From a virus, in IMG/VR virus record IMGVR_UViG_3300019850_000189, positions 1-64,000 of that record: a DNA stretch of 64,000 bases; one strand, written 5' to 3'. Under the pieces are notes generated by a model. That model searched no databases. It had not been told where the DNA came from and worked only from the letters and a program-made list of their open reading frames with translations. Made by a program: the position numbers and the translations under genes. This document shows, piece after piece, positions 1 to 17,718 of this stretch (the first letter of the stretch is position 1; each line of letters starts with the position of its first letter).

Positions 1-113
1 CCTTTATATTCGCCTTCGCCCTGAAAGCCATTCAGGAAAAACCCGGCAGTTGAAAATTCATTCCAGCCAGCTTTGAATAAGTTTTTAATGTATTGCTTTC
101 TAAGATCTTTCAT
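1..113 (-). CDS. MORN-variant repeat protein, 5' part only (array continues beyond the window)
   Basis: ATG at 113 translates to MKDLRKQYIKNLFKAGWNEFSTAGFFLNGFQGEGEYK, the same N-cap as the six complete copies. Confidence 0.85.
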   Translation of the reverse strand, partial: MKDLRKQYIKNLFKAGWNEFSTAGFFLNGFQGEGEYK

Positions 114-137
114 TGTGTAATCCTATTTAGCTTATCT

Positions 138-623
138 TTACGAATGTTGACCCAGACCAGCGGCCGCTTGCTTACCATTTTTGTAGAAAGCATGATTATA
201 TAATTTACCATCATTATGCCATCTTTTAAATTCGCCATTCAATTCGGCGTTTTTATAAAAACAATGAACAGCCAATTGACCATTTTCATACCATCTTTTA
301 TATTCGTCATTCAATTTGCCATTTTTGTAGAAAGTGTGACTATATAATTTACCATTTTCATGCCATCCTTTGAATTCGTCATTCAATTTGCCGTTTTTAT
401 AAAAACAATGAACAGCCAATTGACCATTATCATACCATCTTTTATGTTCACCTTCTTCTTTACCCTTTTTAAAAAAGCAACGAACAGCCAATTGGCCATC
501 TTCATGCCATCTTTTAAATTCGCCTTCGCCCTGGAAGCCATTCAGGAAAAACCCGTCAGTTGAAAATTCATTCCAGCCAACTTTGAATAAGTTTTTGATG
601 TATTGTCTTCTAAGATCTTTCAT
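138..623 (-). CDS. MORN-variant (YwqK-antitoxin-like) repeat protein, 5 repeats
   Basis: 24-aa repeats GEYKxWyxNGqLxxHxFYKNGKLN after a conserved 33-aa N-cap. Confidence 0.85.
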   Translation of the reverse strand: MKDLRRQYIKNLFKVGWNEFSTDGFFLNGFQGEGEFKRWHEDGQLAVRCFFKKGKEEGEHKRWYDNGQLAVHCFYKNGKLNDEFKGWHENGKLYSHTFYKNGKLNDEYKRWYENGQLAVHCFYKNAELNGEFKRWHNDGKLYNHAFYKNGKQAAAGLGQHS

Positions 624-650
624 TGTGTAATCCTATTATATATTCTTTTT

Positions 651-1055
651 TCATTTTAAGTAGTCCTTCACTACTTTACCATTTTTATAAAACTTATGAA
701 TATTTAATTGTCCATTACTATGCCACATTTTATACTCACCATTTAATTTACCGTTATTGTAAAATACATGAAACCATAATTGTCCATTATTGTACCATTG
801 TTTGTGTTCACCATCTAGTTTACTATTTTTATAAAATGAATAGATAAATAATTGACCATTTTCATACCATTGCTTATATTCACCATCTCTTTTATCATGT
901 TTATAAAATACATGAATCCATAATTTACCATTTTTCCACCACTCTTTATATTCACCTTCGCCATGAAAACCATTCAGGAAAACCCCGTCAGTTGAGAATT
1001 CTTCCCAGCCTACTTTGAATAGCTTTTTGATGTATTGCTTTCTAAGATCTTTCAT
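651..1055 (-). CDS. MORN-variant repeat protein, 4 repeats
   Basis: Same cap and repeats; ends KNGKVVKDYLK. Confidence 0.85.
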   Translation of the reverse strand: MKDLRKQYIKKLFKVGWEEFSTDGVFLNGFHGEGEYKEWWKNGKLWIHVFYKHDKRDGEYKQWYENGQLFIYSFYKNSKLDGEHKQWYNNGQLWFHVFYNNGKLNGEYKMWHSNGQLNIHKFYKNGKVVKDYLK

Positions 1056-1067
1056 TTAATTTTCCCT

Positions 1068-1625
1068 TTACGGATGTTGGCCCGAACCACCGGCCGATAG
1101 CTTACCATCTTTATAAAAGCTATGAATGAATAATTGGCCGTTACTATTCCATCTTTTATATTCGCCATTCAATTTACCATTTTTATAAAAACAATGAACA
1201 GTCAATTGACCATTTTCATGCCATCTTTTATATTCACCATTCAATTCACCGTTTTTATAAAAACAATGAACAGCCAATTGGCCATTATTATACCAACTTT
1301 CATATTCACCTTCTTCTCTACCGTTTTTATAAAAACTATGTTCATATAATTGACCATTTTCATACCATCTTTTATATTCGCCATTCAATTTACCGTTTTT
1401 ATAAAAACTACGTTCACGTGATCTACCCTTATTATCCCATTCTTTATATTCGCCATTCAATTCATCATTTTTGTAGAAAGCATGATTATATAATTCACCA
1501 TTTTCATGCCATTCTTTATATTCGCCTTCGCCCTGAAAGCCATTCAGGAAAAATCCATCAGTTAAAAATTCATTCCAGCCGACTTTGAATAAGTTTTTAA
1601 TGTATTGTCTTCTAAGATCTTTCAT
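1068..1625 (-). CDS. MORN-variant repeat protein, 6 repeats
   Basis: Same cap and repeats. Confidence 0.85.
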   Translation of the reverse strand: MKDLRRQYIKNLFKVGWNEFLTDGFFLNGFQGEGEYKEWHENGELYNHAFYKNDELNGEYKEWDNKGRSRERSFYKNGKLNGEYKRWYENGQLYEHSFYKNGREEGEYESWYNNGQLAVHCFYKNGELNGEYKRWHENGQLTVHCFYKNGKLNGEYKRWNSNGQLFIHSFYKDGKLSAGGSGQHP

Positions 1626-2338
1626 TTAATTTTCCCTTTACGGATGTTGGCCAAACCAGTAGCTGCTTGCTTACCGTTTTTGAAAAAAGTGTGACTATAT
1701 AATTTACCATTATCATACCAACTTTTATATTCACCTTCTTTTTTACCATCTTTGTAGAAAGTATCAACACGTAATTGACCATTTCTATACCAAAATTTAT
1801 ATTCACCATTCAACTTGCCATCTTTATAAAAGCCATGTTCAGTTAATTGACCATTTTCATACCAAAATTTATATTCACCATTCAATTTGCCGTTTTTGTA
1901 GAAAGAATGATTATATAATTTACCATTATCGTGATATTGTTTATATTCACCATCCAACTCGCCATTTTTGTAGAAAGCATGAATATGTAATTTACCATTA
2001 TCGTGATATTGTTTATATTCACCATTCAATTTGCCATTTTTGTAGAAAGCATGAATAAATAACCGGCCATTTGAACGGTATTGTTTATATTCACCATTTA
2101 ATTTATTATTTCTATATAAGGCTTGGTCAGATAGTCGGCCGTTGTAATAGTATTGTTTAGATTCACCATTCAGCTCACCATCTTTATAAAAGGCATGAAT
2201 AAATAACCGGCCATTTGGACGGTATTGTTTGTATTCTCCTTCACCGTTAAACCCGCTCCTGAAAAATCCATCAGTTGAAAATTCACCCCAGCCCACTTTG
2301 AATAACTTTTTAATGTATTGCTTTCTAAGATCTTTCAT
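1622..2338 (-). CDS. MORN-variant repeat protein, 8 repeats
   Basis: Same cap and repeats; ATGA overlaps with neighbours. Confidence 0.85.
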   Translation of the reverse strand: MKDLRKQYIKKLFKVGWGEFSTDGFFRSGFNGEGEYKQYRPNGRLFIHAFYKDGELNGESKQYYYNGRLSDQALYRNNKLNGEYKQYRSNGRLFIHAFYKNGKLNGEYKQYHDNGKLHIHAFYKNGELDGEYKQYHDNGKLYNHSFYKNGKLNGEYKFWYENGQLTEHGFYKDGKLNGEYKFWYRNGQLRVDTFYKDGKKEGEYKSWYDNGKLYSHTFFKNGKQAATGLANIRKGKIK

Positions 2339-2919
2339 TTAATAAACCTTTTGAATTTATCTCTACAATGTTTGCCCAGACCACCGGCCGCTTCCTTACC
2401 GTTTTTGAAGAAAACATAATTATATAATTGACCATTTTCATACCATCTTTTATGTTCATCTTCTTCTTTACCATCTTTGTAGAAAGTATCAACATGTAAT
2501 TGACCATTATTATTCCATTTTTTATATTCGCCATTCAATTTGCCATTTCTATAAAAACAATAAACAGCCAATTGGCCCTTACTATTCCATTCTTTATACT
2601 CACCATCTAATTTACCATTTTTATAAAAACTACGTTCATCTAATTGACCATTACTATGCCATCTTTCATATTCACCATTCAACTCACCATCTTTATAAAA
2701 ATGACGTTCATATAATTTACCATTTTCATGCCATTCTTTATATTCTCCATTCAATTTGCCATTTTTAAAAAAAATACGTTCATATAATTTACCATTTTCA
2801 TACCATCTTTTAAATTCGCCTTCATCTTGAAAGCCATTCAGGAAAAACCCATCTTCCGAAAAAGCTCTCCAGCCAACTTTGAATAAGTTTTTGATGTATT
2901 GCTTTCTAAGATCTTTCAT
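2335..2919 (-). CDS. MORN-variant repeat protein, 6 repeats
   Basis: Same cap and repeats. Confidence 0.85.
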   Translation of the reverse strand: MKDLRKQYIKNLFKVGWRAFSEDGFFLNGFQDEGEFKRWYENGKLYERIFFKNGKLNGEYKEWHENGKLYERHFYKDGELNGEYERWHSNGQLDERSFYKNGKLDGEYKEWNSKGQLAVYCFYRNGKLNGEYKKWNNNGQLHVDTFYKDGKEEDEHKRWYENGQLYNYVFFKNGKEAAGGLGKHCRDKFKRFIK

Positions 2920-2943
2920 TTAATAAGCCTTTTGAATTTATCT

Positions 2944-3354
2944 CTACGGATGTTGACCCAAGCCAGCCACTCGCTTACCATTTTTGTAAAGAACATGTCT
3001 ATATAATTTGCCATTATCATACCAACTTTTATATTCGCCATTTAACTCGCCGTTTTTATAAAAACAATGAACAGTCAATTGAGCCTTACTATTCCATTCT
3101 TTATATTCACCATTCAATTTGCCATTTTTATGAGATGCATGAGCCCATAATTGACCATTATCATACCATTGTTTATATTTACCATTTAATTTTCCCTTCT
3201 TATAAAATGTATGAATCCATAATTGACCATTACTATACCGTTTTTCATATTCACCTTCGCCATGAAAGCCATTCAGGAAAAAGCCGGCAGTTGAGAATTT
3301 GTCCCAGCCAACTTTGAATAAGTTTTTGATGTATTGCTTTCTAAGATCTTTCAT
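2944..3354 (-). CDS. MORN-variant repeat protein, 4 repeats (first gene of the array)
   Basis: Same cap and repeats. Confidence 0.85.
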   Translation of the reverse strand: MKDLRKQYIKNLFKVGWDKFSTAGFFLNGFHGEGEYEKRYSNGQLWIHTFYKKGKLNGKYKQWYDNGQLWAHASHKNGKLNGEYKEWNSKAQLTVHCFYKNGELNGEYKSWYDNGKLYRHVLYKNGKRVAGLGQHP

Positions 3355-3430
3355 TGTGTAATCCTATTTAACTTATCTTTACGGATGTTGGCCTAAGTCG
3401 GCAAGATGACTTTAATTCTTTGCGTTGCCT

Positions 3431-5110
3431 CTACTTTTTTATATATACATAATTTCCGCAATCCCAGATCCGGTCCCAGCCATTTAGTTGCATATTTTGC
3501 CATTCAGTTAATATGGGATCAAATATATCTAATTTCTCTCTCAATTTGTGTTTCTGAAACTGAATTCTGGAGTATCTTTTACCATTATTCACATAGTAAT
3601 AATTTGGCTTGCTCAAATGTGAGAATTCAAAGTTGGCTTGTTTATAAACTTCGCCTGTAAAATATCTAGCATCAGCGTAAGTTATGATACTTCCATCTAT
3701 TTTGCTAATCAGTCTACTAAAACCACCTACTACAGATACTCCCTTTTTGTTCGCAAATCTAATTATTTCACAGTCAAAACCAGATTTATATCTTGGCTTT
3801 CCTATTATAATTAAAGACAGCAATTCTTTATCAAACAAACCTAATTTAATAGAGCCTCCTTTATAACCCTGTAGATGGTTATCCTCCATAAACTCTCTGG
3901 CATGACTTGTCCCAACTGTTTTCACCTGTAGTTTTCTGGCATAAAATATTTTATTTTCTATTCCCAATTTATTAAGTATTATTGACTTAACTATATTCTG
4001 TTTGTCAATCCATTCATCTTCAAATATATGAATGAGATTTATGTTGTGCTTCTTAGCCAATTCTGTTTTATGTAAATGATAGCCCTTGCCCTTTTGACCG
4101 ACTATTTCACCGTGCCAGTATAAACCATCAAATTCGATGCCTAATTGAAAACCTGGCAGGAAAATGTCAATTTCTCTCTTTTCTATTTTTATATTTCTTT
4201 TTATATCTAAATTATATGACTTTAGCCAATTCTCTATATCATCTTCATATTTGCTCGTATTATTTAGTTTAGGAAAACAATTCGGGCATCTTGGAATTTT
4301 GCCACTGATTAAATTATCCTCAAAAATTGTTCCACATGTAAGGCATTGCCATTTATATTTAGCATATATACCCCTATAATCATCTACATTAAACAACGGC
4401 CTAATCTTATCTGACAATTTGTCGACAAGGCTATTATAATACTTTATAAAATTTGTTTGCCTTGTTTTGTCTTGAATATCCTTGGATTGAGCAGGATTTT
4501 CTACGCCATATCTTTCTAAATTAGTTTGCTTTATCTTTCTCTGTATTCTTTTAGATTGACTGAAATAAGGAACACCATAGTTTTTTTCAAGTGTTTGAGA
4601 TGCCTTTTCTCTAATTTGAGCATCCTGCATTGGATTTTCTACGCCATACTTTTTAAGATTAGTTTGCTTTACTTTTTCCTGAATTTTTTTCGATTGAAGC
4701 GGATAAGCTACACCATATTTTTTAATATTAGTTTTCTTTATCTTCTCTTGAATTTGCTTTGAACCAAATGGATTTTCAGAACCATATTTTTTAAGATTGG
4801 TTTGTATTGCCTTTTTCTTAACTTGCTTATTTTGCGCGCTGCTAGGCGCGCCATATTTAACAATATTAGTTGCTTTAATTTTTTCTTTTATTGTAGATGA
4901 AGCAAAAACATTCAAAACTCCGTATCGTTGCTTAATAGTATCTTCTAGAAGGCATTTACCACATAAAGGTTTAAGAGCTTTCTTTCTATTTTTATAAATC
5001 CTTCTGAATTCCTTACCACATATTTTACAGGTGCCATAAAGCACAGTTTTATATGAAAGATGAGTTGTAGGAGTGATTTCTATTTTTTCGTTACTTTTCA
5101 ATATATACAT
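3431..5110 (-). CDS. Free-standing homing endonuclease (Zn ribbon, TNxxKYG repeats, PD-(D/E)XK/very-short-patch-like nuclease domain)
   Basis: CxxC pairs, repeated KIKxTNLKKYGVENP units, EIDIFLP...IEFDGLYWH, C-terminal RIWDCG. Confidence 0.75.
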   Translation of the reverse strand: MYILKSNEKIEITPTTHLSYKTVLYGTCKICGKEFRRIYKNRKKALKPLCGKCLLEDTIKQRYGVLNVFASSTIKEKIKATNIVKYGAPSSAQNKQVKKKAIQTNLKKYGSENPFGSKQIQEKIKKTNIKKYGVAYPLQSKKIQEKVKQTNLKKYGVENPMQDAQIREKASQTLEKNYGVPYFSQSKRIQRKIKQTNLERYGVENPAQSKDIQDKTRQTNFIKYYNSLVDKLSDKIRPLFNVDDYRGIYAKYKWQCLTCGTIFEDNLISGKIPRCPNCFPKLNNTSKYEDDIENWLKSYNLDIKRNIKIEKREIDIFLPGFQLGIEFDGLYWHGEIVGQKGKGYHLHKTELAKKHNINLIHIFEDEWIDKQNIVKSIILNKLGIENKIFYARKLQVKTVGTSHAREFMEDNHLQGYKGGSIKLGLFDKELLSLIIIGKPRYKSGFDCEIIRFANKKGVSVVGGFSRLISKIDGSIITYADARYFTGEVYKQANFEFSHLSKPNYYYVNNGKRYSRIQFQKHKLREKLDIFDPILTEWQNMQLNGWDRIWDCGNYVYIKK

Positions 5111-5132
5111 GTATGTATATATGTCATAGCAT

Positions 5133-5159
5133 AAAAAAGCCCCTCAAATTTGAGGGGCT
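5133..5159 (-). terminator. Intrinsic terminator, near-copy of the capsid-gene terminator
   Basis: AGCCCCTCAAATTTGAGGGGCT hairpin followed by T6 on the minus strand. Confidence 0.8.
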
Positions 5160-5287
5160 CATTCACTAACATTATCACAATGGTTTTTTTCATTAATATC
5201 TATTAATAACGAAATAGGGAGTCTATTAAATTAAGCTCTTTTATACAGATTATTGCCACAATCCCAAATCCTGTCCCAGTTGTTTAG

Positions 5288-7162
5288 CTACATATTTTGC
5301 CATTCGGATAGTTTATGATCAAATATTTTGAGGCGCGCTGATAATTTATGCTTTTGAAATCCAATACGTGAATATCTATTCTTATAATCTGTGTAATAAT
5401 AATTCGGAGTGCTTGTATTTATATATTTGAAACCAGCAGATTGATAGCTTCTACCATTAAAATATCTAAGATCCGCGTAGCTAATAATAGAACCATCGTA
5501 GTCTAAATGTGATATTAATTTAGAAAAAGCGCCCGGTATTCGGTAATTAACCTTAGTAGCAAATCGCAGCAATTCGAATTCAGCCGATTTATTATACCTA
5601 GATTTACCCAATGTAATTATTGCCACTATATTGTTTTTATAAAATAGCCCCAGTTTTATTAAAGACGGAACATATCCCTGCAGATGATTTTCTTCTAAGA
5701 AGTTTCGTGCCATTTCTATATCTACTTCTTGAGTGTCACATGTTCGCGCAAATATCTTATTTTCAATAATCCCAATTTTGTTCAATATGATAGACTTCAC
5801 TATATCTTGTTTTTCTATCCATTCATCTTCAAATATATGAATTAAATTTATGCCGCGGGCTCTCATTAGGTTAGTTTTATCTAAATGATAATTTCTATTT
5901 TTCTTGCCACCAAGTTCGCTATGCCAGTACAGACCATCAAATTCTATTCCTAAATTGCAATCAGGAAGATAAATATCTATTTCGCTATTGTCAATTCTAA
6001 TATTTCTTTCTACTTTGGCATAGCGCTTCAACCAATTCTCAATTTCGTCTTCATAACGGCTAGTATTTGTCAGAGGAGGAAAACAACTCGGGCATCTTGG
6101 AATTTTGCCATCTTCCAAATTATCCTCAAATTCAATGCCACATTTAACGCAGCGCCATTTATATGCGCCATTTATGCCATCATATTCATCAATATTGAAC
6201 ATTGGGGTAACTAAATTTTTAAGCCTATTTCCACTTATTAACTGATTATATAGTCTTATTTTACGAGCTCGTGACATCTTATTTCTTATCGATGGGACTT
6301 GCGCTGTGTGAGGCCTACCATATTTTAATAAATTACTCTGTTCTATTTTTATTTTAATGGCCTTGGAAGCAAACACATTATCAACACCATATTTAGCCCT
6401 AACCGTATCTCGTATTCTTTTTCTAATATCTGAACTGCCAAAAGGAGATGGATGACCGTATCTATCGATATTTGTAGCTTTTATTTTATCTCTAACAGGA
6501 GAACAGGTTTTGCTGGGCCAATCAACGCCATATGTGTTCAAACTGGTGGCTCTGACTCTGTCCTTGACGGCAGCATTCATCATTGGGTTTTCTACGCCAT
6601 AATGTTTTAAGTTGGTTTGCTTTATTTTTTCCTTGACAGAATCCAATTGAAGTGTGCTCTTAACTCCATACTTTTTTAAGTTTGTTTTAATTGAGCTACT
6701 TACGGCTTTCTTTACGTTTCTTTTATTTCTAACTTTTGGCAGCTTCAACATGCAATCAGTGCCATATCTTTCCAACAATGTCTTTTTCGTTTTTTCTTCT
6801 ACTTCTTTTCCATGAAGGCTGCTTGCGTTGCCATATTTCTTTATATTAGTTTGCTTGACTTTTTCCTTTATGCGGCCGGATTTCATTGGGTGTGAAAAAC
6901 CATACTTCTCAATATTAGTTTCTATACGTTTTTCTATTGTAGATGGTAACTGTGCTGAATTTTCAACACCATACTTTTCCATTAAACGATATTTTCGGCT
7001 GCAGTTTGTGCAAAGCTGTTTTAAGCGTTCTGGTTTATTTCTATATTGTCGCCTAAATTCTTTTCCACACTCCTCGCAGACCCCACCTATAACAGTCATG
7101 AATTTCAACTTCGTGTTGGGTGTTAGCTCCCGTCTTTCATTACCCTCTATAACATACATCAT
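5288..7162 (-). CDS. Free-standing homing endonuclease, paralog of 3431..5110, cut short by an in-frame TAG 18 codons before the homologous end
   Basis: Same architecture; EWQNM-TAG-LNNWDRIWDCG versus EWQNMQLNGWDRIWDCG in the paralog. Confidence 0.75.
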   Translation of the reverse strand: MMYVIEGNERRELTPNTKLKFMTVIGGVCEECGKEFRRQYRNKPERLKQLCTNCSRKYRLMEKYGVENSAQLPSTIEKRIETNIEKYGFSHPMKSGRIKEKVKQTNIKKYGNASSLHGKEVEEKTKKTLLERYGTDCMLKLPKVRNKRNVKKAVSSSIKTNLKKYGVKSTLQLDSVKEKIKQTNLKHYGVENPMMNAAVKDRVRATSLNTYGVDWPSKTCSPVRDKIKATNIDRYGHPSPFGSSDIRKRIRDTVRAKYGVDNVFASKAIKIKIEQSNLLKYGRPHTAQVPSIRNKMSRARKIRLYNQLISGNRLKNLVTPMFNIDEYDGINGAYKWRCVKCGIEFEDNLEDGKIPRCPSCFPPLTNTSRYEDEIENWLKRYAKVERNIRIDNSEIDIYLPDCNLGIEFDGLYWHSELGGKKNRNYHLDKTNLMRARGINLIHIFEDEWIEKQDIVKSIILNKIGIIENKIFARTCDTQEVDIEMARNFLEENHLQGYVPSLIKLGLFYKNNIVAIITLGKSRYNKSAEFELLRFATKVNYRIPGAFSKLISHLDYDGSIISYADLRYFNGRSYQSAGFKYINTSTPNYYYTDYKNRYSRIGFQKHKLSARLKIFDHKLSEWQNM

Positions 7163-7197
7163 TTTTTGCTCCTTAAATTATATATATGTCATAGCAT

Positions 7198-7222
7198 AAA
7201 AAAGCCCCTCAATTGAGGGGCT
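7198..7222 (-). terminator. Intrinsic terminator after the major capsid gene
   Basis: AGCCCCTC-AATT-GAGGGGCT hairpin plus T6. Confidence 0.85.
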
Positions 7223-7242
7223 CATTTATTTGCTAGTTTGAA

Positions 7243-8754
7243 TTATGGACTGGCTGTTCTAAAGTCAACATCCATAAGACCATATAGTAACTCACCCAAT
7301 GGAACTTTGACCAAACCATAACGAGCAATAAAGCCACGCCTTGGAGTGAAATCATTAGGCCCATAAATTACAGGGGTAAGCTGAGTTACATAAGGAGCAT
7401 AAACTACGCCAGCACCAAATGGTGATATCGGGCTCTTGTGGCCTAGAAGAATTTTCTCTTCTGGGAACAAAGGGTCCTTATATACATCAAATTTACCAGC
7501 ATAATTACCAGCCTTAACTATACCAAGGCCACCTGTTGCTGTAACAGGATTAGGAATAAAACCTCTGAGAACTTCTAGCTGAGATGAAATCTTAGTAGAT
7601 GTAACAACCCAATTAGCAGGACCGATCTTACTCTTTCTATAAATCTCGTTAGATGTTTCAACGATTTTATTTACTAATGCAAGATGCCTGTCAAGGAAGT
7701 TACCTACTGTGTTGTTGTTGGAGTCCCATCTCCAGTTAAACTTATCCTTGGTTGCTGCACTGAACATACATTTTCTTACTATCTCACGGTCGATCTCAGC
7801 GATCATTTCGTTCGATACAAGAGAAGTAAGTTCTGCTTCGGCGTTCAAGTTATGATAAGCTTTTAGGTCCTGCTCAGCTTCATTTGACCAGTGAGCTTTT
7901 AGCTTTCTGGTTTTAGCTACGACAGGAATAGAGGTGATGGTTATTTTCATCTCCGGAATATCTTCGGAGAACTCCATGTCGATCTCATAATTGATCTCGA
8001 CTTTGAAGCCATCACTATTAAGAGCGTTTGTTATTGTAACATTGTTACCATTCATGCCGGTTACTGTAAAATCTGTGGATACATTGCCATAGACATCATA
8101 GACAACACCAGCACTTGTGCCGGCAGTACCTGTGAAGCTATAAACAACTTCGCCACCAGTTTCGCCAGTGTCAAGATTAGTAGCAACTTCGCGGATGATT
8201 GTGCCTTCTACAGCAGCTGTACCGCTAAGCGCAGCAGCCCACTTCATAGAAGCATATGTGTGACCTGCGGTCAGAGTATCCATTGCGAATGTATACGGTG
8301 CACCAGTGCTACTAGCAACAAACGGACCTACAACTTGTTTTGAATAGTAAGGTGAGTAACCTTGCCAACCTTCATCCGGAACCTTTAAGGGAGCGCTTGC
8401 TGAAAATGCAGAATATTGAGATCCTTGAGCTACGTTACCCTTTTCAGTACCAAACACGTACTTAAGATAAAAAATTACTGCTGCCGGACCAGCCATGGGC
8501 TGAACGGAAACAATATTGTTGGCTATCAAATTCGGAAAGACTCTCCTTACGATAGGAAGCATGATCTTCTGGATACCAACAACATCACTAGTTCCTGTGT
8601 TGTTACCCGCTTCTAAGAGGTACTCAGCCTCATTTTCAAGGAGCATAGCTGTATTGATTTTTGTATATTTCTCATCAATACCCTCCAAGAAAGGCTCCCA
8701 CTTAGATAATAGGCGACCCTCTTCCTCTTTGAGAAGTCTGCGTTTATCTACCAT
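7243..8754 (-). CDS. gp23: Major capsid protein (T4 gp23-like)
   Basis: LSKWEP, LLENE, PIVRRVFP, VQPMAGP, EMKITI...AKTRKLKAHWSNEAEQDLKAYH, EIDREI, YAPY, FTPRRGFIARYG. Confidence 0.95.
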   Translation of the reverse strand: MVDKRRLLKEEEGRLLSKWEPFLEGIDEKYTKINTAMLLENEAEYLLEAGNNTGTSDVVGIQKIMLPIVRRVFPNLIANNIVSVQPMAGPAAVIFYLKYVFGTEKGNVAQGSQYSAFSASAPLKVPDEGWQGYSPYYSKQVVGPFVASSTGAPYTFAMDTLTAGHTYASMKWAAALSGTAAVEGTIIREVATNLDTGETGGEVVYSFTGTAGTSAGVVYDVYGNVSTDFTVTGMNGNNVTITNALNSDGFKVEINYEIDMEFSEDIPEMKITITSIPVVAKTRKLKAHWSNEAEQDLKAYHNLNAEAELTSLVSNEMIAEIDREIVRKCMFSAATKDKFNWRWDSNNNTVGNFLDRHLALVNKIVETSNEIYRKSKIGPANWVVTSTKISSQLEVLRGFIPNPVTATGGLGIVKAGNYAGKFDVYKDPLFPEEKILLGHKSPISPFGAGVVYAPYVTQLTPVIYGPNDFTPRRGFIARYGLVKVPLGELLYGLMDVDFRTASP

Positions 8755-8787
8755 AAATTTATACCCTCCTGAAAAAACCTTCTTTAA

Positions 8788-9675
8788 TTATTTTTCTTTA
8801 TTCACGCCTGCGAGTTCAAGCAATTCCTGCAGAGTTTCATTGTAGTCTGCCTTTTCCTCGTCCTCAACAAGAGGTTCAACGTTACCAGTTTTTGATTTTA
8901 ATCTAACTGACTCATCTTCTTCTTCTGGATCTAATTCTTCTTCGTCGGGCTCGTCTTCATCTTCATCTTCATCTTCATCTTCATCTTGTTCTAGATCTTC
9001 TTCAGCCATATCTGGCTCTTCATCACCCTTTTTCTTCTTTTTCTTCTTTTTCTTCTTTTTCCCCGTATCCGCTTCTTCATCAGGCTCTTCATCATAATTC
9101 GTATCTTCTTCATCATCCGACTTCTTCTCGTCCAGAGCTTCTTTAATAGCTGCATATTTCTCAACTACTTCTTCTTCTGTGCCCTCTCCAACGAGCGTTG
9201 CAACAACTCTCTTGATGTCTTCAGATAAACCTTCAGTAAGCTCCATGAGTTTCTTCTTGCCTTTTGTTAGCTCAAGTTCTTCTGATAATTCTTCGTTCAT
9301 CTCTGCCATTTTAGAAAATTCAGAAGCATACTTCTCACCTTCTGAGCCTTTAATAAGAGGATATATTATAGTTTTAATTTCATCAAGAACTCTCATTTCC
9401 GGAGAATCAAAACTTTCCGCGAGGACTTCAGTTTTGATTTGTTCATACATTTCTTTCAATGCTGTTACAAATCTCTTTGTATATACTCTCTTCATCTTCT
9501 CGCGAATATCTTGAACAACTGATTCATACTCTTCTTTGAGAGCGCTTTCCATTTCTTCATATTTAGAAGTTAGATCTTCCTCAACTTTATTTATGACGCT
9601 TTCTTTCCAAGACTCGAGCTGCTCTCTTAACTCTTCAGTCTCTTCAGGGGTAAGGTCAATATTCTCTAATGCCAT
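8788..9675 (-). CDS. Prohead core/scaffold protein (gp22-like)
   Basis: Acidic coiled coil with D/E- and K-rich tail, located between protease and capsid genes. Confidence 0.7.
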   Translation of the reverse strand: MALENIDLTPEETEELREQLESWKESVINKVEEDLTSKYEEMESALKEEYESVVQDIREKMKRVYTKRFVTALKEMYEQIKTEVLAESFDSPEMRVLDEIKTIIYPLIKGSEGEKYASEFSKMAEMNEELSEELELTKGKKKLMELTEGLSEDIKRVVATLVGEGTEEEVVEKYAAIKEALDEKKSDDEEDTNYDEEPDEEADTGKKKKKKKKKKKGDEEPDMAEEDLEQDEDEDEDEDEDEPDEEELDPEEEDESVRLKSKTGNVEPLVEDEEKADYNETLQELLELAGVNKEK

Positions 9676-9688
9676 GTATTATGCCTCC

Positions 9689-10612
9689 TTAGTCCTCTTT
9701 AGCGAACTTGGTAATAGTTTTTGTAAGAGTTTGCGGATTATAGCCTTTATATCCGATCTTCTCCATTATTTTGTAAAGAATATCATCTCCATATTCTTCT
9801 TGCACCTTTTTAAGTTTTCTTTCAATCAAGCCAATTTTAACAGTTTTATTTCCATTCTTGGCTTCTAAATGCCAATGATGACTAATGTGATTCAAAAACG
9901 TACCATATGAATCATAACCACTTTCCTTTAAATAGAAACGCGCACCATCAGCGACGCCTATATACTCTTTTTCCAGGTCTACAGCGACATTTTCTAACAT
10001 GTCATCAAGTACATCCTCCACCACTGTGCCAAGTGGAATTTTTGTTTCTTCGAGCTTTTCTTCTTTATGCTCATATACTGCTTCTGGATAGGCGTTTGGA
10101 GTAGATGGATCAGAAACAATATCAAAAGTAACCATTTTGTAATCCCCCGCGACCTCATCAACTCCGTTGTTCTTTTTCACGGTACCAAACCCTCTAGATG
10201 AGATCCCCAATTTAATACCACTTTTGAGTAGCTCCTGCAATACACGTCCTGATGGAGTTTCTAATACGGTAGCTTCGCCGTAAACTTCTCCAGTAGGTTG
10301 TATAGAAAGTTTTGTTACCAGATGTGAAACTTTATCCAAATGAATCCTTGCATCAGAAGGATGATCGAGTTCACCTAAAATTCTTTTTTCATTTATGCCT
10401 TCCTGTAATCTTTGTACTTCTCTTTCAAGAACGGATCTTGGATAAACTCTTCCATTACCATTTTTAACATCGGCCTGTTGAAAAATTCCCTTCAGCCTAT
10501 ATGCTTTAACGGTATTCTCTTCATCTTTATCCTCAACAAGCTCATACTTTAAATTCATTACATCTTGGATAATAGGCATTTCTTCAGTTATGATGTTTTT
10601 ATCTCTCGCCAT
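9689..10612 (-). CDS. gp21: Prohead protease (T4 gp21-like) with C-terminal extension
   Basis: GIFQQADVKNGNGRVYP, GELDHP, GISSRGFG, FDIVSDPSTPNA. Confidence 0.93.
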   Translation of the reverse strand: MARDKNIITEEMPIIQDVMNLKYELVEDKDEENTVKAYRLKGIFQQADVKNGNGRVYPRSVLEREVQRLQEGINEKRILGELDHPSDARIHLDKVSHLVTKLSIQPTGEVYGEATVLETPSGRVLQELLKSGIKLGISSRGFGTVKKNNGVDEVAGDYKMVTFDIVSDPSTPNAYPEAVYEHKEEKLEETKIPLGTVVEDVLDDMLENVAVDLEKEYIGVADGARFYLKESGYDSYGTFLNHISHHWHLEAKNGNKTVKIGLIERKLKKVQEEYGDDILYKIMEKIGYKGYNPQTLTKTITKFAKED

Positions 10613-10627
10613 TAATTATCCTCCACT

Positions 10628-11968
10628 TTATTCTTCTTCCTCTTCTTCCTCTTCTTCACCTTTTGTTGCACCAGCAAGAAAATCAATGATTTCCTTCAAT
10701 CTGGTATCTTCAATACCTTTTGCTTTTGCATTTTCAAGATCAGATATGATGTTAGAGAGGAAATCGGCTTCATCGGAATCTGAATCAAGCTGCTTTTTTA
10801 TGGTTTTCAATGTCGCCACAATTTCCTTGATGTTTTCGTCATCAACTTCATCGGCTGCTTTGTCTTTCTTTTCTTTGCTTTTTTTATCAGGCTCCGAAGG
10901 CTCAGCAACCGCGTCCGGCGACAGCTCGGCAGCTTTTTCTTCATCATCTTGTTCAAACATTACTTCAGCGATTTGTTCTGGGGTAGCACCTAGTGATTCA
11001 TAATAATCTTCTTTAATTGCTTTTATATCGTCATGAATAAGTAATTTATTCATGATTTCTACTAAAGTATTTGCGTTCTTTGAATTTGTCATAAGAGCTG
11101 TTCTCATCATAACTTCTTGATATCTGGAAGGTTCCAACAAAAACAATTCCTTGTTGTTTTCAAAAAACATTTCGGCCGCTTCGATAGCATCCTCTAATGC
11201 TTCTGCTTGCTGGAGATCAAAAGTGAAGTTAGAAAATTTCTGCCTAAAGGCATCGGTTTTCCATAATTTATATAGCTTCCCAGCCAAAGCTTTCATTTTA
11301 GCTTTAATTTCTTTATCTTCCAAACTTTTGATATCGGGCGAAATGTAATTATATACATTTGTATCTACTTTGTAGCCCTTTTTATTACTCCAATCAACTT
11401 TGTTAAGAGATTGGCTAACTGCATTTTCAGCCTCTAGCTGTAGCTTAGCGGAAAGTTTTCTAACAAAAGGCTTAGTCATGAGTTCATGAATTTGAGCATA
11501 ATTTCTATCGCGCAATTCTCTCAATTTATGTTTAGCCATGATTGATGGGTTATCATATATTTTTCTAAGCTTGTTATCCTTCGCTTCTGTAATTTCCCTT
11601 CTAGCATTATCATAAAACTTGAGTCTGAAACCTTCAACTAACTCTTCTGTCGGTACGATTGGATCATTCTCGATGTCAAAAAGATCACCAACTTTTTCAC
11701 CAAGAACAGTATCATCGTTTTCGGTTAAATCTATTAGCTCAAAACCGCTAACGCTGAGAATTCCATTAGAGTAATCGTATGAGCAGATGTATGGTTGATT
11801 TGTTTCTTCATCAAGAACAATAATTTTGTCATCGTATAATGCCATTAAGGCCGCGTTCTCAGATTCAGCAAATATTTCAGAAAATTTGTCATAGAGCTTC
11901 TCACTACTCTTATCTGCAACCTTTCTGAATTGATTATATGTCAACTGCATAGAATCATTCCTCCTCAT
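10628..11968 (-). CDS. Hypothetical acidic head-assembly protein (true start probably 11950)
   Basis: 446-aa ORF between portal and protease; many L/I-x-E sites; GGAGG RBS before MQLTY. Confidence 0.7.
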   Translation of the reverse strand: MRRNDSMQLTYNQFRKVADKSSEKLYDKFSEIFAESENAALMALYDDKIIVLDEETNQPYICSYDYSNGILSVSGFELIDLTENDDTVLGEKVGDLFDIENDPIVPTEELVEGFRLKFYDNARREITEAKDNKLRKIYDNPSIMAKHKLRELRDRNYAQIHELMTKPFVRKLSAKLQLEAENAVSQSLNKVDWSNKKGYKVDTNVYNYISPDIKSLEDKEIKAKMKALAGKLYKLWKTDAFRQKFSNFTFDLQQAEALEDAIEAAEMFFENNKELFLLEPSRYQEVMMRTALMTNSKNANTLVEIMNKLLIHDDIKAIKEDYYESLGATPEQIAEVMFEQDDEEKAAELSPDAVAEPSEPDKKSKEKKDKAADEVDDENIKEIVATLKTIKKQLDSDSDEADFLSNIISDLENAKAKGIEDTRLKEIIDFLAGATKGEEEEEEEEE

Positions 11969-14538
11969 TTCTTTTTATTATTAATTCCTCTAAATTCTCC
12001 ATGGAGGAACTGGTTTTGATATGTGTTGCTGCGCATCGTATTTGATATGCCTTCAGAAACATCATACTTAAGATTATCTTTGTCCTTATTTGACTTTTGC
12101 TTAACATATTTTATCATTTTCAATATATCATATTTATTCTCGAGCAAGAACTCCTTATCGCCAATTGTTATTGTTTTCCCTGCCACTTCTGGGCCGGCCG
12201 GAGCTTCGGGAGCTTCGGGAGCTGCTGGAGCTGCTGGAGCCGCTTCCGGACCAGCTTCAGCACCAGCTTCTGGTCCGGCTGGCACCTCACCAATTCCACC
12301 AGCCGTACCCGGCACTGCTCCTAATTCTCCGGCACCAGCTCCTCCACCGGCTGGAAGTGCAGCGCCAAATCCCTGAGCTCCACCACCAGCAGTCTGTTGC
12401 TGTAATGGAGATGCCAGTTCTAATTGCATATCTGTTTCCAGATCAGTAATTTGCTTATCTGAAAACTTCATAATATTCTTATATATCCATTTTTTAGGCA
12501 GAAAATTTTCTATTGACAGAATAGTACTTACCAAATTAATTTTTTGTGTTACAACCTCTAATTCAAGCAACTCAGCTATATTGGATGGAGGCGTTAATTC
12601 AATCTGGAAATTTCTGACATCCTGTCCCCTAAATCCTTGTAGTGTCAAAGACACTATAGCTATTTTTTCGAGGCCTTTCATTATGTGCCTCTGAATACGC
12701 TCAACAGACCTTGAAAATTTAATATCCATCTGACTCAAGGCATTTCGCGTATCCATTCCACCGCCTTCCTGCATATACTGAGGCGGTATGTGCATCGTCT
12801 TTAATAATTTATCTCTAAAGTATTTTGTATCATCAATTTCATTAAGTTGGCGGCCACCTTGAAGCACATCTATTCGGGTCCCCTGTCCTGCGGTTGCTCC
12901 TGATCTTACCGGAATCCAAAAGTCTTCCAATATAGATAAAGGAGTCGCTTTTTCGTTAATCTTACCGGAGTTCTTAACAAATGTTCCTTCATAGGAACCA
13001 ATGGCAAAATTATGATAATTCGCAATAGAGAGAGTTCCAGTATCTAATGTGTAATTTAGTTTTTCAACTTTTACAACTTTGTGATTAATTACGCGCTTAT
13101 ATTCTGGGTCTGCCCACATGGCAATTGCTCTTTCCGACATCATGTCGGCGTGTAATTGAAAATGTTCATTGCCAGACATTACTTGTATATTAGTGGGATT
13201 ATTATTTTTCTTATTAAGATCGCGATGATGCCTGACAGATATTGCCCCTTCTTCTTTCATATTATTAAAATCTTCTTGGAACATAAAGTCACTGATAGTA
13301 TGTGTAAAAACATACTGATTAATTGATGGGTCTACTACTAAATCATATCCTTTTATTTTATACTTGTCATCTGACTCTTTTCGATACAGGGGCATAAGGC
13401 TGTCCCCTTTGTTCAACTGTTCCGCAGGGACATAGGTTCCATCTCGCATGAGAAACTTATGGTCTGGAGTTACAGTAAACGATTGCCCATCATCTATAGT
13501 TACTTTTACTACAGGTGTAGATTTTCGTGTAATGCCTGCCCACTTAACATGCCCTGGAACAATCTTGTTGTTATTATCTCTATCTACAGAATATGTCCAT
13601 AGATCTTTGCCATTATCGAATTCATTAATAATATCTTGAAGTGGCAGAATTCTACCATCTAAAAGAGGAATTTCTGTGTCAAGAGCTAAACACGCTGGAT
13701 CGATATATTTCTTTTTTCTGAACTTTGCTTTAATTCGCTCTATGAATTTTTCCGCTTCGGGTGTGGAGAGTGTGCCGACATCAATATAAAATACCCTTTT
13801 CTCTGGTGCGCGCTCAAGTCTATATACGAGCATCGCATCTTCCATCAATGACAATTGTTTCCAAGTCCTGCGACCTGATTCTAAAACGGACCTTCCATAA
13901 GGAGCAAATATATTATCATCAATCCTAAAGTGTACAACTTCCCATGGCTGCAACTTTATTTTATTCGACTTTTCTGGATGCGCATAAATGGTTCTTTGAG
14001 ACCCCTCTTTAGCAACATTCTTAGCTACCGCAAAATTAAGTAAATTGCCATCAACCTCCATTCGTTCGACATTCATAGGAGGTAAATACTTAAGCGATAC
14101 TATTTCTTTCTTTTTATCATCGACAATTATTTCATAGAAATTATCGCCATACTGACATGTGCCATAAAATATGCGCCATAAATCTGCATTCATGTCTAAA
14201 TTATCAAAGAACGTGTGATTCAGATTTTTAATGATATCATCATTACTGGAACTTATGTCCAATACTTGTTCATTATTATTAAGCTGACTACCATCATCAG
14301 CATACGTAACCAATCCTAAATCTAGTTCCGGAACAAGAACCATATTTTCATAATCTTTATATCGTTCTCTACGCTCATTGGATACGGTTATATAAGTTGT
14401 CATCCAATGGTATGTATCCGAATCTATAAAATCGCGATCCTTCAGTGTTTGGATAGCTCTACTGGAATCAAGATCCTTTGCTGTTATTTTAAGCTTATTG
14501 AAAAAATCTTGATATTCTCGACTACGTTTGCTGGCCAT
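11965..14538 (-). CDS. gp20: Portal protein (T4 gp20-like) containing an intein
   Basis: LSLMEDAMLVYRLERAPEKRVFYIDVG, EDFWIPVR...GTRIDVLQGG, YFRDKL; Ala/Gly/Pro-rich tail. Confidence 0.93.
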   Translation of the reverse strand: MASKRSREYQDFFNKLKITAKDLDSSRAIQTLKDRDFIDSDTYHWMTTYITVSNERRERYKDYENMVLVPELDLGLVTYADDGSQLNNNEQVLDISSSNDDIIKNLNHTFFDNLDMNADLWRIFYGTCQYGDNFYEIIVDDKKKEIVSLKYLPPMNVERMEVDGNLLNFAVAKNVAKEGSQRTIYAHPEKSNKIKLQPWEVVHFRIDDNIFAPYGRSVLESGRRTWKQLSLMEDAMLVYRLERAPEKRVFYIDVGTLSTPEAEKFIERIKAKFRKKKYIDPACLALDTEIPLLDGRILPLQDIINEFDNGKDLWTYSVDRDNNNKIVPGHVKWAGITRKSTPVVKVTIDDGQSFTVTPDHKFLMRDGTYVPAEQLNKGDSLMPLYRKESDDKYKIKGYDLVVDPSINQYVFTHTISDFMFQEDFNNMKEEGAISVRHHRDLNKKNNNPTNIQVMSGNEHFQLHADMMSERAIAMWADPEYKRVINHKVVKVEKLNYTLDTGTLSIANYHNFAIGSYEGTFVKNSGKINEKATPLSILEDFWIPVRSGATAGQGTRIDVLQGGRQLNEIDDTKYFRDKLLKTMHIPPQYMQEGGGMDTRNALSQMDIKFSRSVERIQRHIMKGLEKIAIVSLTLQGFRGQDVRNFQIELTPPSNIAELLELEVVTQKINLVSTILSIENFLPKKWIYKNIMKFSDKQITDLETDMQLELASPLQQQTAGGGAQGFGAALPAGGGAGAGELGAVPGTAGGIGEVPAGPEAGAEAGPEAAPAAPAAPEAPEAPAGPEVAGKTITIGDKEFLLENKYDILKMIKYVKQKSNKDKDNLKYDVSEGISNTMRSNTYQNQFLHGEFRGINNKKK
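12970..13692 (-). mobile_element. Intein in portal (241 aa) with an HNH-like insert
   Basis: DPA|CLALDTEIPLLDG ... TPDHKF ... HHRDLNKKNNNPTNIQV ... NFAIGSYEGTFVKN|SGKI. Confidence 0.88.
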
Positions 14539-14556
14539 TATATTTTATTTCCATTA

Positions 14557-14564
14557 TTATCTTT
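14557..14564 (-). promoter_or_regulatory. AAAGATAA motif (candidate phage late promoter) upstream of portal
   Basis: The same 8-mer precedes about 11 gene starts in the window. Confidence 0.55.
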
Positions 14565-14607
14565 ATATTTTCTATATTTATAAATGTAGTTACTGATGGC
14601 GACATAG

Positions 14608-15009
14608 TTATTCAATTTCACCAAAGCTGTCCCTACTTATGACAACAGGTACAATGACATTTATTTCTGAAAAAGCCTTCTCAATGTTATCTAATAAGTC
14701 GACATCGATTCCGACTTTCTCAAAATATACATTCCATCGATCTGCAGCAAATTGGCGGGTTTTCGGACCAATTAATTGCTTAAGTGGAATGTGTAATACA
14801 AAAGTATCATCTTTTGTTTCTACAGATAAACTCTTAAAATTGATATCAGCGGCATCGCAGGCTTTTTTGAGCCTTTTTTTAAACTCTTTTTCTTGTGCAT
14901 CTTCAGCTTCTAATATTTTATCAATGTCGGTTTTATTAGCAATTCCACGCTCTTTCATCATTTCCTTAATAGTTTTCATCATATCCCCGGCGTCTATATA
15001 AATTTTCAT
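14608..15009 (-). CDS. Hypothetical protein
   Basis: 133-aa ORF, translationally coupled. Confidence 0.7.
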   Translation of the reverse strand: MKIYIDAGDMMKTIKEMMKERGIANKTDIDKILEAEDAQEKEFKKRLKKACDAADINFKSLSVETKDDTFVLHIPLKQLIGPKTRQFAADRWNVYFEKVGIDVDLLDNIEKAFSEINVIVPVVISRDSFGEIE

Positions 15010-15299
15010 TTAGCGGCTTGCTTCCACATCGCCGCCGCAGCAACTCTTTTACCAGCCTCTTTCGAGCCGTAAAACTTGCCCGCTTTTGCCGCTACTTCTT
15101 TGAAGCGCTTACCTGGTTTGCCAATATCTTCGCCCTTTCTGGCTCTCTTGACAAGTTCAGTTCTTTTCTTCTTTGATACTTTTTTGAGCCCGGGGTGCTT
15201 GCTTGGCACCTGTTCGCTTATTTCATCACTTGTAATCGGCTCATCCATAATACTATCAATTTCTCTTTTCATCTCTGTGAAGAAAACAGACCATTTCAT
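15006..15299 (-). CDS. Hypothetical basic protein
   Basis: 97-aa K/A-rich ORF with GGAG RBS. Confidence 0.7.
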   Translation of the reverse strand: MKWSVFFTEMKREIDSIMDEPITSDEISEQVPSKHPGLKKVSKKKRTELVKRARKGEDIGKPGKRFKEVAAKAGKFYGSKEAGKRVAAAAMWKQAAK

Positions 15300-17710: not shown

Positions 17711-17718
17711 TTCACATC

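What the first reader, a model, noticed from the sequence alone, without database searches (positions are those of the whole stretch)
1..3354. Tandem library of at least 7 MORN-variant repeat proteins with fixed cap and variable repeat number
Seen: six complete genes and one partial gene share a 33-aa N-cap (MKDLRKQYIKNLFKVGW...GFFLNGFxGE), followed by 4, 6, 8, 6, 4 and 5 copies of a 24-aa module (GEYKxWxxNGqLxxHxFYKNGKLN). The scaffold is nearly fixed, while the residues around the W and the four after GxL vary in almost every module. Known: MORN-variant repeats form beta-hairpin sheets that bind proteins, and the family includes YwqK-type antitoxins. Inference: a diversifying repertoire of binders (conceptually like VLR or TALE arrays), possibly decoys or inhibitors of host toxins/defence effectors, kept next to the capsid operon.
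Basis: partly seen in the sequence, partly recalled or inferred. Interest (0 to 1): 0.82.

Follow-up and report, generated by a model that had tools for sequence, protein, structure and literature searches.

The report
Phage operon of capped MORN-variant proteins
An uncultured T4-like phage carries a row of at least seven sister genes for small beta-hairpin repeat (MORN-variant) proteins with a shared N-terminal cap and 4 to 8 repeats each; they look like a panel of protein binders, but their targets are unknown and similar gene families are already known from bacteria, giant viruses and other large phages.

Summary
Six complete genes and one cut gene lie on the minus strand at 1-3354. Each has the same 33-residue cap, then 4, 6, 8, 6, 4 and 5 ungapped 24-residue modules (33 in all). 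All six match Pfam MORN_2.

The window starts at base 1 of a 189-kb, about 79% complete phage record, so the array is cut by the contig end and its true size is unknown.

A confident AlphaFold model gives a helical cap and a single-layer sheet of hairpins like MORN1. The variable columns (5, 7, 8, 11, 13-16) flank the loop inside each module, so they line one long edge of the sheet. The fixed columns flank the turn between modules.

Scaffold columns are under purifying selection (omega 0.24). The most variable columns run at about the synonymous rate (1.1 to 1.6). That is free variation, not proven diversifying selection.

The same module and variability profile recur in arrays of other large phages, so this is an old family. 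Closer relatives by capsid protein lack the array at this site, and the link to the capsid operon looks incidental.

An anti-toxin or anti-defence role is plausible but untested; the YwqK link rests on annotation only.

This scan has flagged similar phage arrays on other DNA before.

The parts
1..113 (-). g7: start of a seventh paralog (cap plus the first 4 residues of module 1), cut by the end of the contig
   Evidence: The translation reads MKDLRKQYIKNLFKAGWNEFSTAGFFLNGFQGEGEYK. Window base 1 is contig base 1.
138..623 (-). g6: 161 aa, cap plus 5 modules plus tail AAGLGQHS
   Evidence: (MORN_2, E 1.4e-23)
651..1055 (-). g5: 134 aa, cap plus 4 modules plus tail KDYLK
   Evidence: (E 3.5e-17)
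1068..1625 (-). g4: 185 aa, cap plus 6 modules; this is the protein that was modelled
   Evidence: (E 2.2e-23). AlphaFold2 mean pLDDT 91.7, pTM 0.83.
1622..2338 (-). g3: 238 aa, cap plus 8 modules. Five modules have Y in place of the scaffold W. Its stop overlaps the g4 start (ATGA).
   Evidence: (E 1e-32)
2335..2919 (-). g2: 194 aa, cap plus 6 modules. Its stop overlaps the g3 start (ATGA).
   Evidence: (E 2.8e-23)
2944..3354 (-). g1: 136 aa, cap plus 4 modules; the first gene of the array as it stands
   Evidence: (E 5.1e-12)
3355..3405 (-). Relic of the conserved inter-gene junction: the last codons and stop of a lost upstream paralog plus the ribosome-binding region. It ends about 25 nt from the stop of the endonuclease gene.
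   Evidence: In the alignment of all seven junctions, the stretch GGCCAACATCCGTAAAGATAAGTTAAATAGGATTACACAATG upstream of g1 matches the g6-g7 junction almost base for base.

Best explanation
This is a lineage-specific operon of paralogous cytoplasmic MORN_2 (MORN-variant) repeat proteins. It belongs to a subfamily that recurs in large phages.

Each protein has an N-terminal helical cap plus a half-repeat strand, followed by 4 to 8 beta-hairpin modules that form one elongated single-layer antiparallel sheet. Scaffold residues are held by purifying selection: G1, E2, Y3, K4, W6, N9, G10, L12, H15 and the run F17 to N24. The residues around the loop inside each module are free to vary, so each paralog shows a different long edge.

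The family grew by tandem duplication of whole gene units (gene plus a junction of about 45 nt) and by duplication or exchange of 72-nt modules, within and between genes. This explains the different repeat numbers.

All genes have their own AGG-type ribosome-binding site. Gaps between genes are short (12-27 nt) or the stop and start overlap (ATGA), so the genes are probably made together from one transcript.

Inferred function: a panel of intracellular protein binders. Each paralog would grip a different target in the infected cell, most plausibly host proteins such as toxins or defence effectors, and block or sequester it. The invariant helix gives all paralogs one common property, either a structural cap or a shared docking site.

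Shown here: the gene structure, the fold class, the selection pattern, the mode of growth, and the recurrence in other phages. Inferred: that they bind proteins, and what they bind.
For: - Genes, caps and modules.
- MORN_2 membership.
- Structure: the confident model has helices 2-15 and 17-22 and a strand at 25-27, then 12 strands. Module columns 1-6 and 12-19 are strands, 7-11 a loop and 20-21 a turn.
- Nearest solved folds are MORN1 (6t4d, 6t6q, 6t68), radial-spoke MORN proteins, SET7/9 and junctophilin.
- Selection: scaffold omega 0.24 (CI 0.19-0.30); variable columns about 0.9-1.6. Cap residues 1-17 have pN 0.029 against pS 0.25.
- Mode of growth: the nearest modules lie both within genes (g6.1-g6.3, g3.3-g3.4) and between genes (g4.4-g6.1, g2.4-g3.6, g1.2-g2.3). 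Terminal modules of g1, g2, g3 and g6 cluster together.
- Junctions are conserved, and neighbouring junctions are of the same type.
- Recurrence: the same 24-residue module and the same column-entropy profile (Spearman 0.85-0.90) occur in arrays of other large phages. L010 has 13 genes and 52 modules; a 388-kb contig has three arrays.
- No signal peptide or hydrophobic stretch is visible in the cap (sequence).
- The array is an accessory region: it is absent downstream of the capsid gene in relatives L019 and L021.
Against: - No binding partner, expression data or phenotype exists.
- The omega values at the variable columns do not exclude plain relaxed constraint.
- There is no toxin or defence-related gene beside the array, and PADLOC and NCBIfam give nothing specific.
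- The 'YwqK antitoxin' name is a propagated annotation. Zhang et al. 2012 (PMC3482391) list a mostly alpha-helical family, Imm6, as the immunity partner of YwqJ-type deaminases and do not mention MORN.
Confidence: 0.5

Rival explanations
1. Phage 'polyimmunity' locus. Each paralog is an immunity-type inhibitor that neutralises a different host toxin or abortive-infection effector, for example deaminase or nuclease toxins. This would be the phage counterpart of the homogeneous polyimmunity loci of polymorphic-toxin systems. It is a specific sub-case of the binder reading.
For: - Several sources name the homologs 'antitoxin component YwqK' or 'YwqK family antitoxin'.
- YwqK is the proven immunity protein of the YwqJ ssDNA cytidine deaminase toxin (bioRxiv 10.64898/2026.09.29.755374).
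- The locus has the formal features that Zhang et al. 2012 give for polyimmunity loci: tandem paralogs in one orientation, tiny gaps between genes, no toxin genes in between, and content that differs between relatives.
Against: - I could not test whether B. subtilis YwqK is itself a MORN_2 protein. PF07661 rang in only one of 14 control genomes, Bacteroides thetaiotaomicron, and PF14434 (Imm6) rang in none.
- Zhang et al. list Imm6, not MORN, for YwqJ deaminases.
- No MORN_2 protein with tested immunity function turned up in my literature searches.
- No cognate toxin is known.
Confidence: 0.2
2. Virion-associated proteins. The shared N-terminal helix would act as a targeting or docking peptide, like the capsid-targeting sequence of the T4 internal proteins or the capsid-binding part of Hoc. 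The MORN ribbons would be packaged or displayed, which would explain a position after the major capsid gene.
For: - The array is co-oriented with the head genes and lies downstream of them: gp23-like capsid protein 7243-8754, protease, portal, terminase.
- The first 17 residues are almost invariant in all paralogs.
- From my own knowledge: T4 internal-protein genes are also variable apart from a fixed N-terminal peptide.
Against: - Two strong terminators (7202-7223 and 5137-5160) and two endonuclease genes separate the array from the capsid gene.
- Relatives with 75-84% identical capsid proteins have no array there.
- Arrays in other phages lie by ribonucleotide reductase, ligase and cytidylyltransferase genes.
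- The cap has no conserved L/I-x-E protease site. The motif WNEF is present in only some copies (the T4 motif is from my own knowledge).
- The model places residues 25-27 as a strand beside the first module, which fits a structural cap.
Confidence: 0.1
3. Membrane- or envelope-binding scaffolds. As with eukaryotic MORN proteins, or the MORN repeats reported in endolysins, the ribbons would bind lipids or cell-wall polymers rather than proteins. The paralogs would differ mainly in length.
For: - The fold matches MORN1 and junctophilin, which work at membranes.
- PMC9238414 states that MORN repeats occur in phage endolysins.
Against: - There is no signal peptide, no lytic domain and no lysis genes nearby.
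- Variation concentrated at particular positions fits specific protein contacts better than generic lipid binding.
Confidence: 0.1
4. Neutral gene accordion or assembly artefact. The copies would be recent amplifications without separate functions, or a mis-assembled collapsed repeat.
For: - The contig ends inside the array. Related contigs L009 and L025 also end in MORN genes.
- Repeats are known to break assemblies: MORN repeats were 37 times commoner in long reads than in assemblies (PMC9238414).
Against: - All six genes are intact, with 33 in-frame modules.
- The copies are only 60-66% identical in protein, and the closest modules differ at 6 of 72 bases.
- Scaffold omega is 0.24.
- Chimeric assembly would be expected to break frames.
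Confidence: 0.07

Closest known systems
Pfam MORN_2 (PF07661) gene expansions in Fusobacterium and Helicobacter bilis (Manson McGuire et al. 2014, PMC4222103)
   Same: The same repeat family. There are many paralogs, often clustered, with variable repeat number per gene. Recombination between repeats was proposed as the driver, and the function is unknown.
   Different: 87% of the fusobacterial proteins carry signal peptides and are thought to act at the cell surface. The phage proteins have no signal peptide, carry a helical N-cap, are small (134-238 aa) and sit in a tightly packed operon, with two of the six junctions as ATGA overlaps.
MORN-repeat multigene families of giant viruses (Orpheovirus, Pithovirus, Hyperionvirus, Marseillevirus; PMC5753266)
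   Same: Best structural matches in the viral library: TM 0.7-0.8, rmsd 0.9-2 A, 25-39% identity. Both are expanded paralog families of repeat proteins in large DNA viruses.
   Different: The hosts are eukaryotes. Many giant-virus members carry other N-terminal domains, for example DUF5758 and DUF7666, instead of the 33-residue cap.
Capped MORN_2 arrays in other large phage contigs (L010, a 72-kb IMG/VR contig; L011, L012, L014 and L016, a 388-kb contig)
   Same: The same 24-residue module consensus and the same variable columns. The cap is related (Q-I-x-x-L-F ... G-L/F-W/F-F/L-x-G-x-x-G-E-G-E-Y-K). Genes are tandem with ATGA overlaps and carry 1-6 modules each.
   Different: The cap sequence variant differs, and only one metagenome protein, P0007, shares this window's cap. 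The genome neighbourhood also differs: nucleotide-metabolism genes rather than head genes.
Homogeneous polyimmunity loci of polymorphic-toxin systems (Zhang et al. 2012, PMC3482391) and YwqK, immunity protein of the YwqJ deaminase toxin
   Same: Tandem paralogs in one orientation, closely spaced, uninterrupted by toxin genes, with content that varies between relatives. The homologs carry the name 'YwqK family antitoxin'.
   Different: No toxin partner is known, the setting is a phage rather than a bacterium, and the tie between MORN_2 and a tested immunity protein could not be checked here.
Eukaryotic MORN proteins with solved structures (MORN1 6t4d, 6t6q, 6t68; radial-spoke RSP1/RSP10; junctophilin 7rxe; SET7/9 N-domain)
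   Same: A single-layer antiparallel sheet built from repeated hairpins (Foldseek E from 2e-7 to 1e-3).
   Different: Sequence identity is only 13-21% and TM about 0.5. The Pfam family differs (PF02493 against PF07661), as does the period (23 against 24 residues). There is no shared function that can be inferred.

Membership tests
Pfam MORN_2 (PF07661, MORN repeat variant) | Several repeats of about 22 residues that match the profile, with the whole protein above the gathering score (29.6 bits) | tested here: met
   All six proteins score 45-109 bits, E from 5e-12 to 1e-32. All 24 single-repeat matches in the record lie at 177-3189.
Pfam MORN_2 (PF07661, MORN repeat variant) | Beta-hairpin repeats forming an elongated antiparallel sheet | tested here: met
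   The AlphaFold2 model (pLDDT 91.7) has two strands per module. Its nearest folds are MORN proteins.
YwqK-type immunity / antitoxin | Encoded next to a cognate toxin gene (LXG or deaminase type) | tested here: not met
   The neighbours are homing endonucleases and head genes. No toxin domain was found at 3431-19032.
YwqK-type immunity / antitoxin | Sequence homology to B. subtilis YwqK itself | not testable with these tools
   No YwqK sequence was at hand. The link rests only on names given by sources. The control-genome searches were uninformative.
YwqK-type immunity / antitoxin | Binds and neutralises a toxin | not testable with these tools
   This needs co-expression or binding assays.
Homogeneous polyimmunity locus (Zhang et al. 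2012) | At least four tandem paralogs in one orientation, short intergenic distances, no toxin genes interspersed | tested here: met
   At least seven genes, with gaps from -4 to 27 nt and nothing between them.
Homogeneous polyimmunity locus (Zhang et al. 2012) | The members belong to a family with shown or strongly inferred immunity function | tested here: inconclusive
   MORN is not among the immunity families named in the held text of PMC3482391 (0 occurrences). Only annotation names point that way.
T4-type internal proteins with a capsid-targeting sequence | Short conserved N-terminal peptide ending in a prohead-protease site (L/I-x-E), as I know it from T4 | tested here: not met
   The cap has no conserved L/I-x-E. 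The residues after W17 read NEF, DKF, RAF, GEF or EEF.
Canonical MORN (PF02493) | Match to the PF02493 profile | tested here: not met
   Only PF07661 was reported at E up to 0.01. The similarity is at the level of fold.

The most novel reading that the evidence does not exclude
Large phages carry inherited panels of capped MORN-variant mini-binders that act as a counter-defence repertoire. Each paralog would inhibit a different host toxin or immune effector through its variable hairpin-tip edge, and the invariant N-terminal helix would be a common handle. This would be a phage analogue of bacterial polyimmunity loci.
Probability: 0.2. Interest if true: 0.8.

Novelty: new member of a known kind. 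Interest (0 to 1): 0.4.

Why it matters
If these proteins are binders aimed at host factors, arrays like this one would be a large pool of candidate phage counter-defence proteins built on one simple scaffold, and I found no paper describing them. The 24-residue hairpin, with a fixed frame and about eight free positions, would also be a natural template for engineered binders. This locus by itself adds one more example and no function. Its practical value is as a well-defined set of six intact paralogs for pull-down and defence-screen experiments. It also reminds us that such arrays break short-read assemblies and are under-counted.

Tried and rejected
- Close DNA relatives among deposited phages: none.
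- Exact-pattern scans of viral and metagenome contigs for the cap's DNA, and a degenerate cap scan of metagenomes: nothing usable. The copy-number variation of this particular array across samples could therefore not be measured.
- The contig that carries the one protein with the same cap (P0007) is not on record.
- A conserved RNA structure in the 45-nt junction: none predicted.
- T4-type late promoters (TATAAATA) in front of the array: none there, and the motif is not enriched in the window. Expression timing could not be inferred.
- PADLOC and NCBIfam gave only sub-threshold repeat noise. Sequence search of solved structures gave only the SET7/9 N-domain.
- Using control genomes to test whether YwqK is MORN_2 or Imm6 was uninformative.
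- All-pairs per-column pN/pS was set aside as saturated (dS about 1). It was replaced by counts along a minimum spanning tree.
- A diversity-generating retroelement or other active diversification mechanism was considered only. I did not search for a reverse transcriptase. The differences between modules are ordinary substitutions, and no near-identical copies exist.
Full report
**What is there.** On the minus strand of window 1-3354 lie six complete genes. In transcription order they are g1 2944-3354, g2 2335-2919, g3 1622-2338, g4 1068-1625, g5 651-1055 and g6 138-623. A seventh gene starts at 113 and runs off the window. The window begins at base 1 of a 189,375-bp IMG/VR virus record, classed as linear and about 79% complete. 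The array is therefore cut by the end of the assembly and 'at least seven' is a lower bound.

Each protein starts with the same 33 residues (MKDLRKQYIKNLFKVGW..F...G.F..GF..E). It continues with 4, 6, 8, 6, 4 and 5 ungapped 24-residue modules, 33 in all, with consensus GEYKxWxxNGQLxxHxFYKNGKLN. The 72-nt period is seen at the DNA level in every gene. All six proteins match Pfam MORN_2 (PF07661) above its curated cut-off. Every MORN_2 match of the 189-kb record falls inside this locus.

**Gene organisation.** The genes are separated by 12-27 nt or overlap by ATGA (g2/g3 and g3/g4). Each ATG is preceded at 7-8 nt by AGGA, AAGG or AGGG. This fits one transcript with coupled translation.

The roughly 45 nt that span the end of one gene and the start of the next are themselves conserved. 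They come in three variants, and neighbouring junctions are of the same variant. This points to growth by local duplication of whole gene-plus-junction units.

The short C-terminal tails (AAGLGQHS, AGGSGQHP, ATGLANIRKGKIK, AGGLGKHCRDKFKRFIK) are encoded by this conserved DNA but read in different frames. Single-base deletions in g2 and g3 removed the ancestral stop and produced the ATGA overlaps. The tails are thus not constrained as protein. No conserved RNA fold was predicted for the junction.

A copy of the junction, including the last codons and stop of a vanished gene, lies upstream of g1 at about 3355-3405, some 25 nt from the stop of a homing-endonuclease gene. The array once reached further upstream.

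**Surroundings.** The phage is T4-like. It has a gp23-type major capsid protein at 7243-8754, a prohead protease at 9689-10612, a T4-type portal carrying an intein at 11965-14538 and a large terminase at 16073-17710.

Between the capsid gene and the array lie two paralogous genes at 5288-7162 and 3431-5110, 45% identical to each other. They carry DUF7487 and endonuclease-type domains and match homing-endonuclease phrogs. Each is preceded by the same strong terminator, at 7202-7223 and 5137-5160, embedded in a duplicated element of about 50 nt. The array is therefore not simply part of the capsid operon.

**Structure.** An AlphaFold2 model of g4, built on 71 homologs, is confident: mean pLDDT 91.7, pTM 0.83. 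Only the first 30 residues (67-73) and the tail are lower. It has helices at 2-15 and 17-22 and a short strand at 25-27, then twelve strands.

In module numbering, columns 1-6 and 12-19 are strands, columns 7-11 are the loop inside the module, and columns 20-21 are the turn to the next module. The nearest solved folds are the single-layer sheets of MORN1 (6t4d, 6t6q, 6t68), followed by radial-spoke MORN proteins, SET7/9, junctophilin and OspA. In the viral model library the best matches are dozens of giant-virus MORN proteins and a 'MORN variant' of an uncultured tailed phage.

In a hairpin meander, all the loops inside modules lie on one long edge and all the turns between modules lie on the other. 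The variable columns (5, 7, 8, 11, 13-16) surround the loop inside the module; the fixed block F17 to K4 surrounds the turn between modules. Variation is therefore concentrated along one edge of the ribbon and is not scattered. Simple strand alternation suggests that both faces of that edge vary.

**Selection.** All-against-all comparison of modules is close to synonymous saturation, with dS about 1. I therefore counted changes only along a minimum spanning tree of the 33 modules.

| Column set | Synonymous rate used | Omega | 95% bootstrap interval |
|---|---|---|---|
| Scaffold columns | own columns | 0.24 | 0.19-0.30 |
| Five most variable columns (5, 8, 13, 14, 16) | pooled | 1.09 | 0.88-1.39 |
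| Five most variable columns (5, 8, 13, 14, 16) | own columns | 1.62 | 1.08-2.99 |

The last figure rests on few synonymous sites in columns that were chosen after looking at the data. The proteins are clearly kept by selection. The tip positions evolve about as fast as silent sites. Diversifying selection is possible but not shown.

The first 17 residues of the cap are almost frozen (pN 0.029, pS 0.25).

**History.** The nearest-neighbour modules lie both within genes (g6.1/g6.3, g3.3/g3.4, g3.0/g3.2) and between genes (g4.4/g6.1, g4.3/g6.1, g2.4/g3.6, g1.2/g2.3). The last modules of g1, g2, g3 and g6 group together. Repeat number thus changed by internal duplication, and modules were exchanged or inherited between paralogs. 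Even the closest pair differs at 6 of 72 bases, and the paralogs are only 60-66% identical. This is an aged family, not a freshly amplified or actively shuffling one.

**Relatives.**
- Contigs whose capsid protein is 75-84% identical show no MORN array after the capsid gene. L021 has the two endonuclease genes and then other genes for 5 kb. L019 has neither.
- The closest MORN gene elsewhere, 71% identical, sits at the very start of a 108-kb viral contig (L009). Another capped one sits at the end of a 19.7-kb contig (L025).
- Only one database protein, P0007, shares this cap closely.
- More distant capped arrays occur in other large phages. A 72-kb contig has 13 tandem genes with 52 modules. 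A 388-kb contig has three arrays. Both show the same module consensus and the same profile of variable columns (Spearman 0.85-0.90).
- Those arrays lie beside ribonucleotide reductase, cytidylyltransferase-like, ligase and GIY-YIG genes, not beside head genes.

The architecture is old and recurrent in big phages, its place in the genome is not fixed, and its presence varies between relatives.

A long-read study of marine viruses found MORN repeats 37 times more often in long reads than in assemblies, because repeats break assemblies (PMC9238414). This matches the three contig ends seen here.

**What it probably does.** Repeat ribbons with a fixed frame and free edge positions are typical binding scaffolds. 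There is no signal peptide, so the proteins act in the cytoplasm of the infected cell. I take the most likely reading to be a co-expressed panel of protein binders with different targets, and host proteins are the obvious candidates.

The sharper idea is that they inhibit host toxins or defence effectors. Three things support it: the homologs are named 'YwqK family antitoxin', YwqK is a proven immunity protein of a deaminase toxin, and the locus formally resembles a homogeneous polyimmunity locus.

Against it, I could not verify that YwqK itself is a MORN_2 protein. Zhang et al. 2012 assign a mostly helical family (Imm6) to YwqJ-type deaminases and do not mention MORN. No toxin is nearby, and the defence libraries are silent.

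A virion-linked role with the cap as a targeting peptide is a weaker rival, for three reasons: the terminators, the lack of a conserved protease site, and the non-structural neighbourhoods of sister arrays.

**Comparison and novelty.** Expansions of MORN_2 genes with variable repeat number and recombination-driven change were described for Fusobacterium in 2014, with function unknown (PMC4222103). MORN multigene families are well known in giant viruses (PMC5753266 listed). My literature searches found no paper on capped MORN_2 arrays in tailed phages.

This scan has flagged and followed up similar phage arrays on other DNA. Those are unchecked AI notes; my own loci confirm the recurrence independently.

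I file the locus as a new member of a known kind, with moderate interest. The phenomenon as a class deserves an experiment, but this instance adds no functional information.

Noticed in passing
window 3431-5110 and 5288-7162 (minus strand); terminators at 5137-5160 and 7202-7223: Two paralogous genes (45% identical) with DUF7487 and endonuclease-type domains, matching homing-endonuclease phrogs, follow the capsid gene. Each is preceded by the same element of about 50 nt holding a strong hairpin terminator and a TATATA stretch, as if the endonuclease cassette had been duplicated together with the capsid gene's terminator. The downstream copy of the pair in relative L021 has the same layout.
   Followed up: partly
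window 3355-3405: A relic of the array's inter-gene junction, with the last codons and stop of a lost MORN gene, lies just after the endonuclease gene's stop. This suggests that the endonuclease insertion or a deletion truncated the array on its upstream side.
   Followed up: partly
window 11965-14538 and 22706-25594: The T4-type portal gene carries an intein with an HNH-like part. The ribonucleotide reductase large-subunit gene also carries an intein.
   Followed up: no
window 2340-2400, 1625-1690 (C-terminal tails of g2 and g3): Single-base deletions in the conserved GC-rich tail DNA shift the frame. This removes the ancestral stop and creates the ATGA stop/start overlaps. The tail peptide differs between paralogs while its DNA is conserved.
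   Followed up: yes
L010:7010-12102 (IMGVR_UViG_3300002026_001699); L012, L014 and L016 (IMGVR_UViG_3300025715_000009, 388 kb): Other large viral contigs carry longer arrays of capped MORN_2 mini-genes. One has 13 genes in a row. The 388-kb contig has three separate arrays with two different cap types. One array is split by a 586-aa cytidylyltransferase-like gene.
   Followed up: partly
L023 (ENA contig of 285,797 bp): A long contig with evenly spaced genes (gaps of about 87 nt) holds two runs of three MORN_2 paralogs among glycosyltransferase genes. It looks more like a giant virus than a phage.
   Followed up: no
window 1622-2338 (g3): Five of the eight modules of g3 have Y in place of the otherwise conserved scaffold W at column 6 (motif GEYKQY). 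This sub-type arose by duplication inside this one gene.
   Followed up: partly
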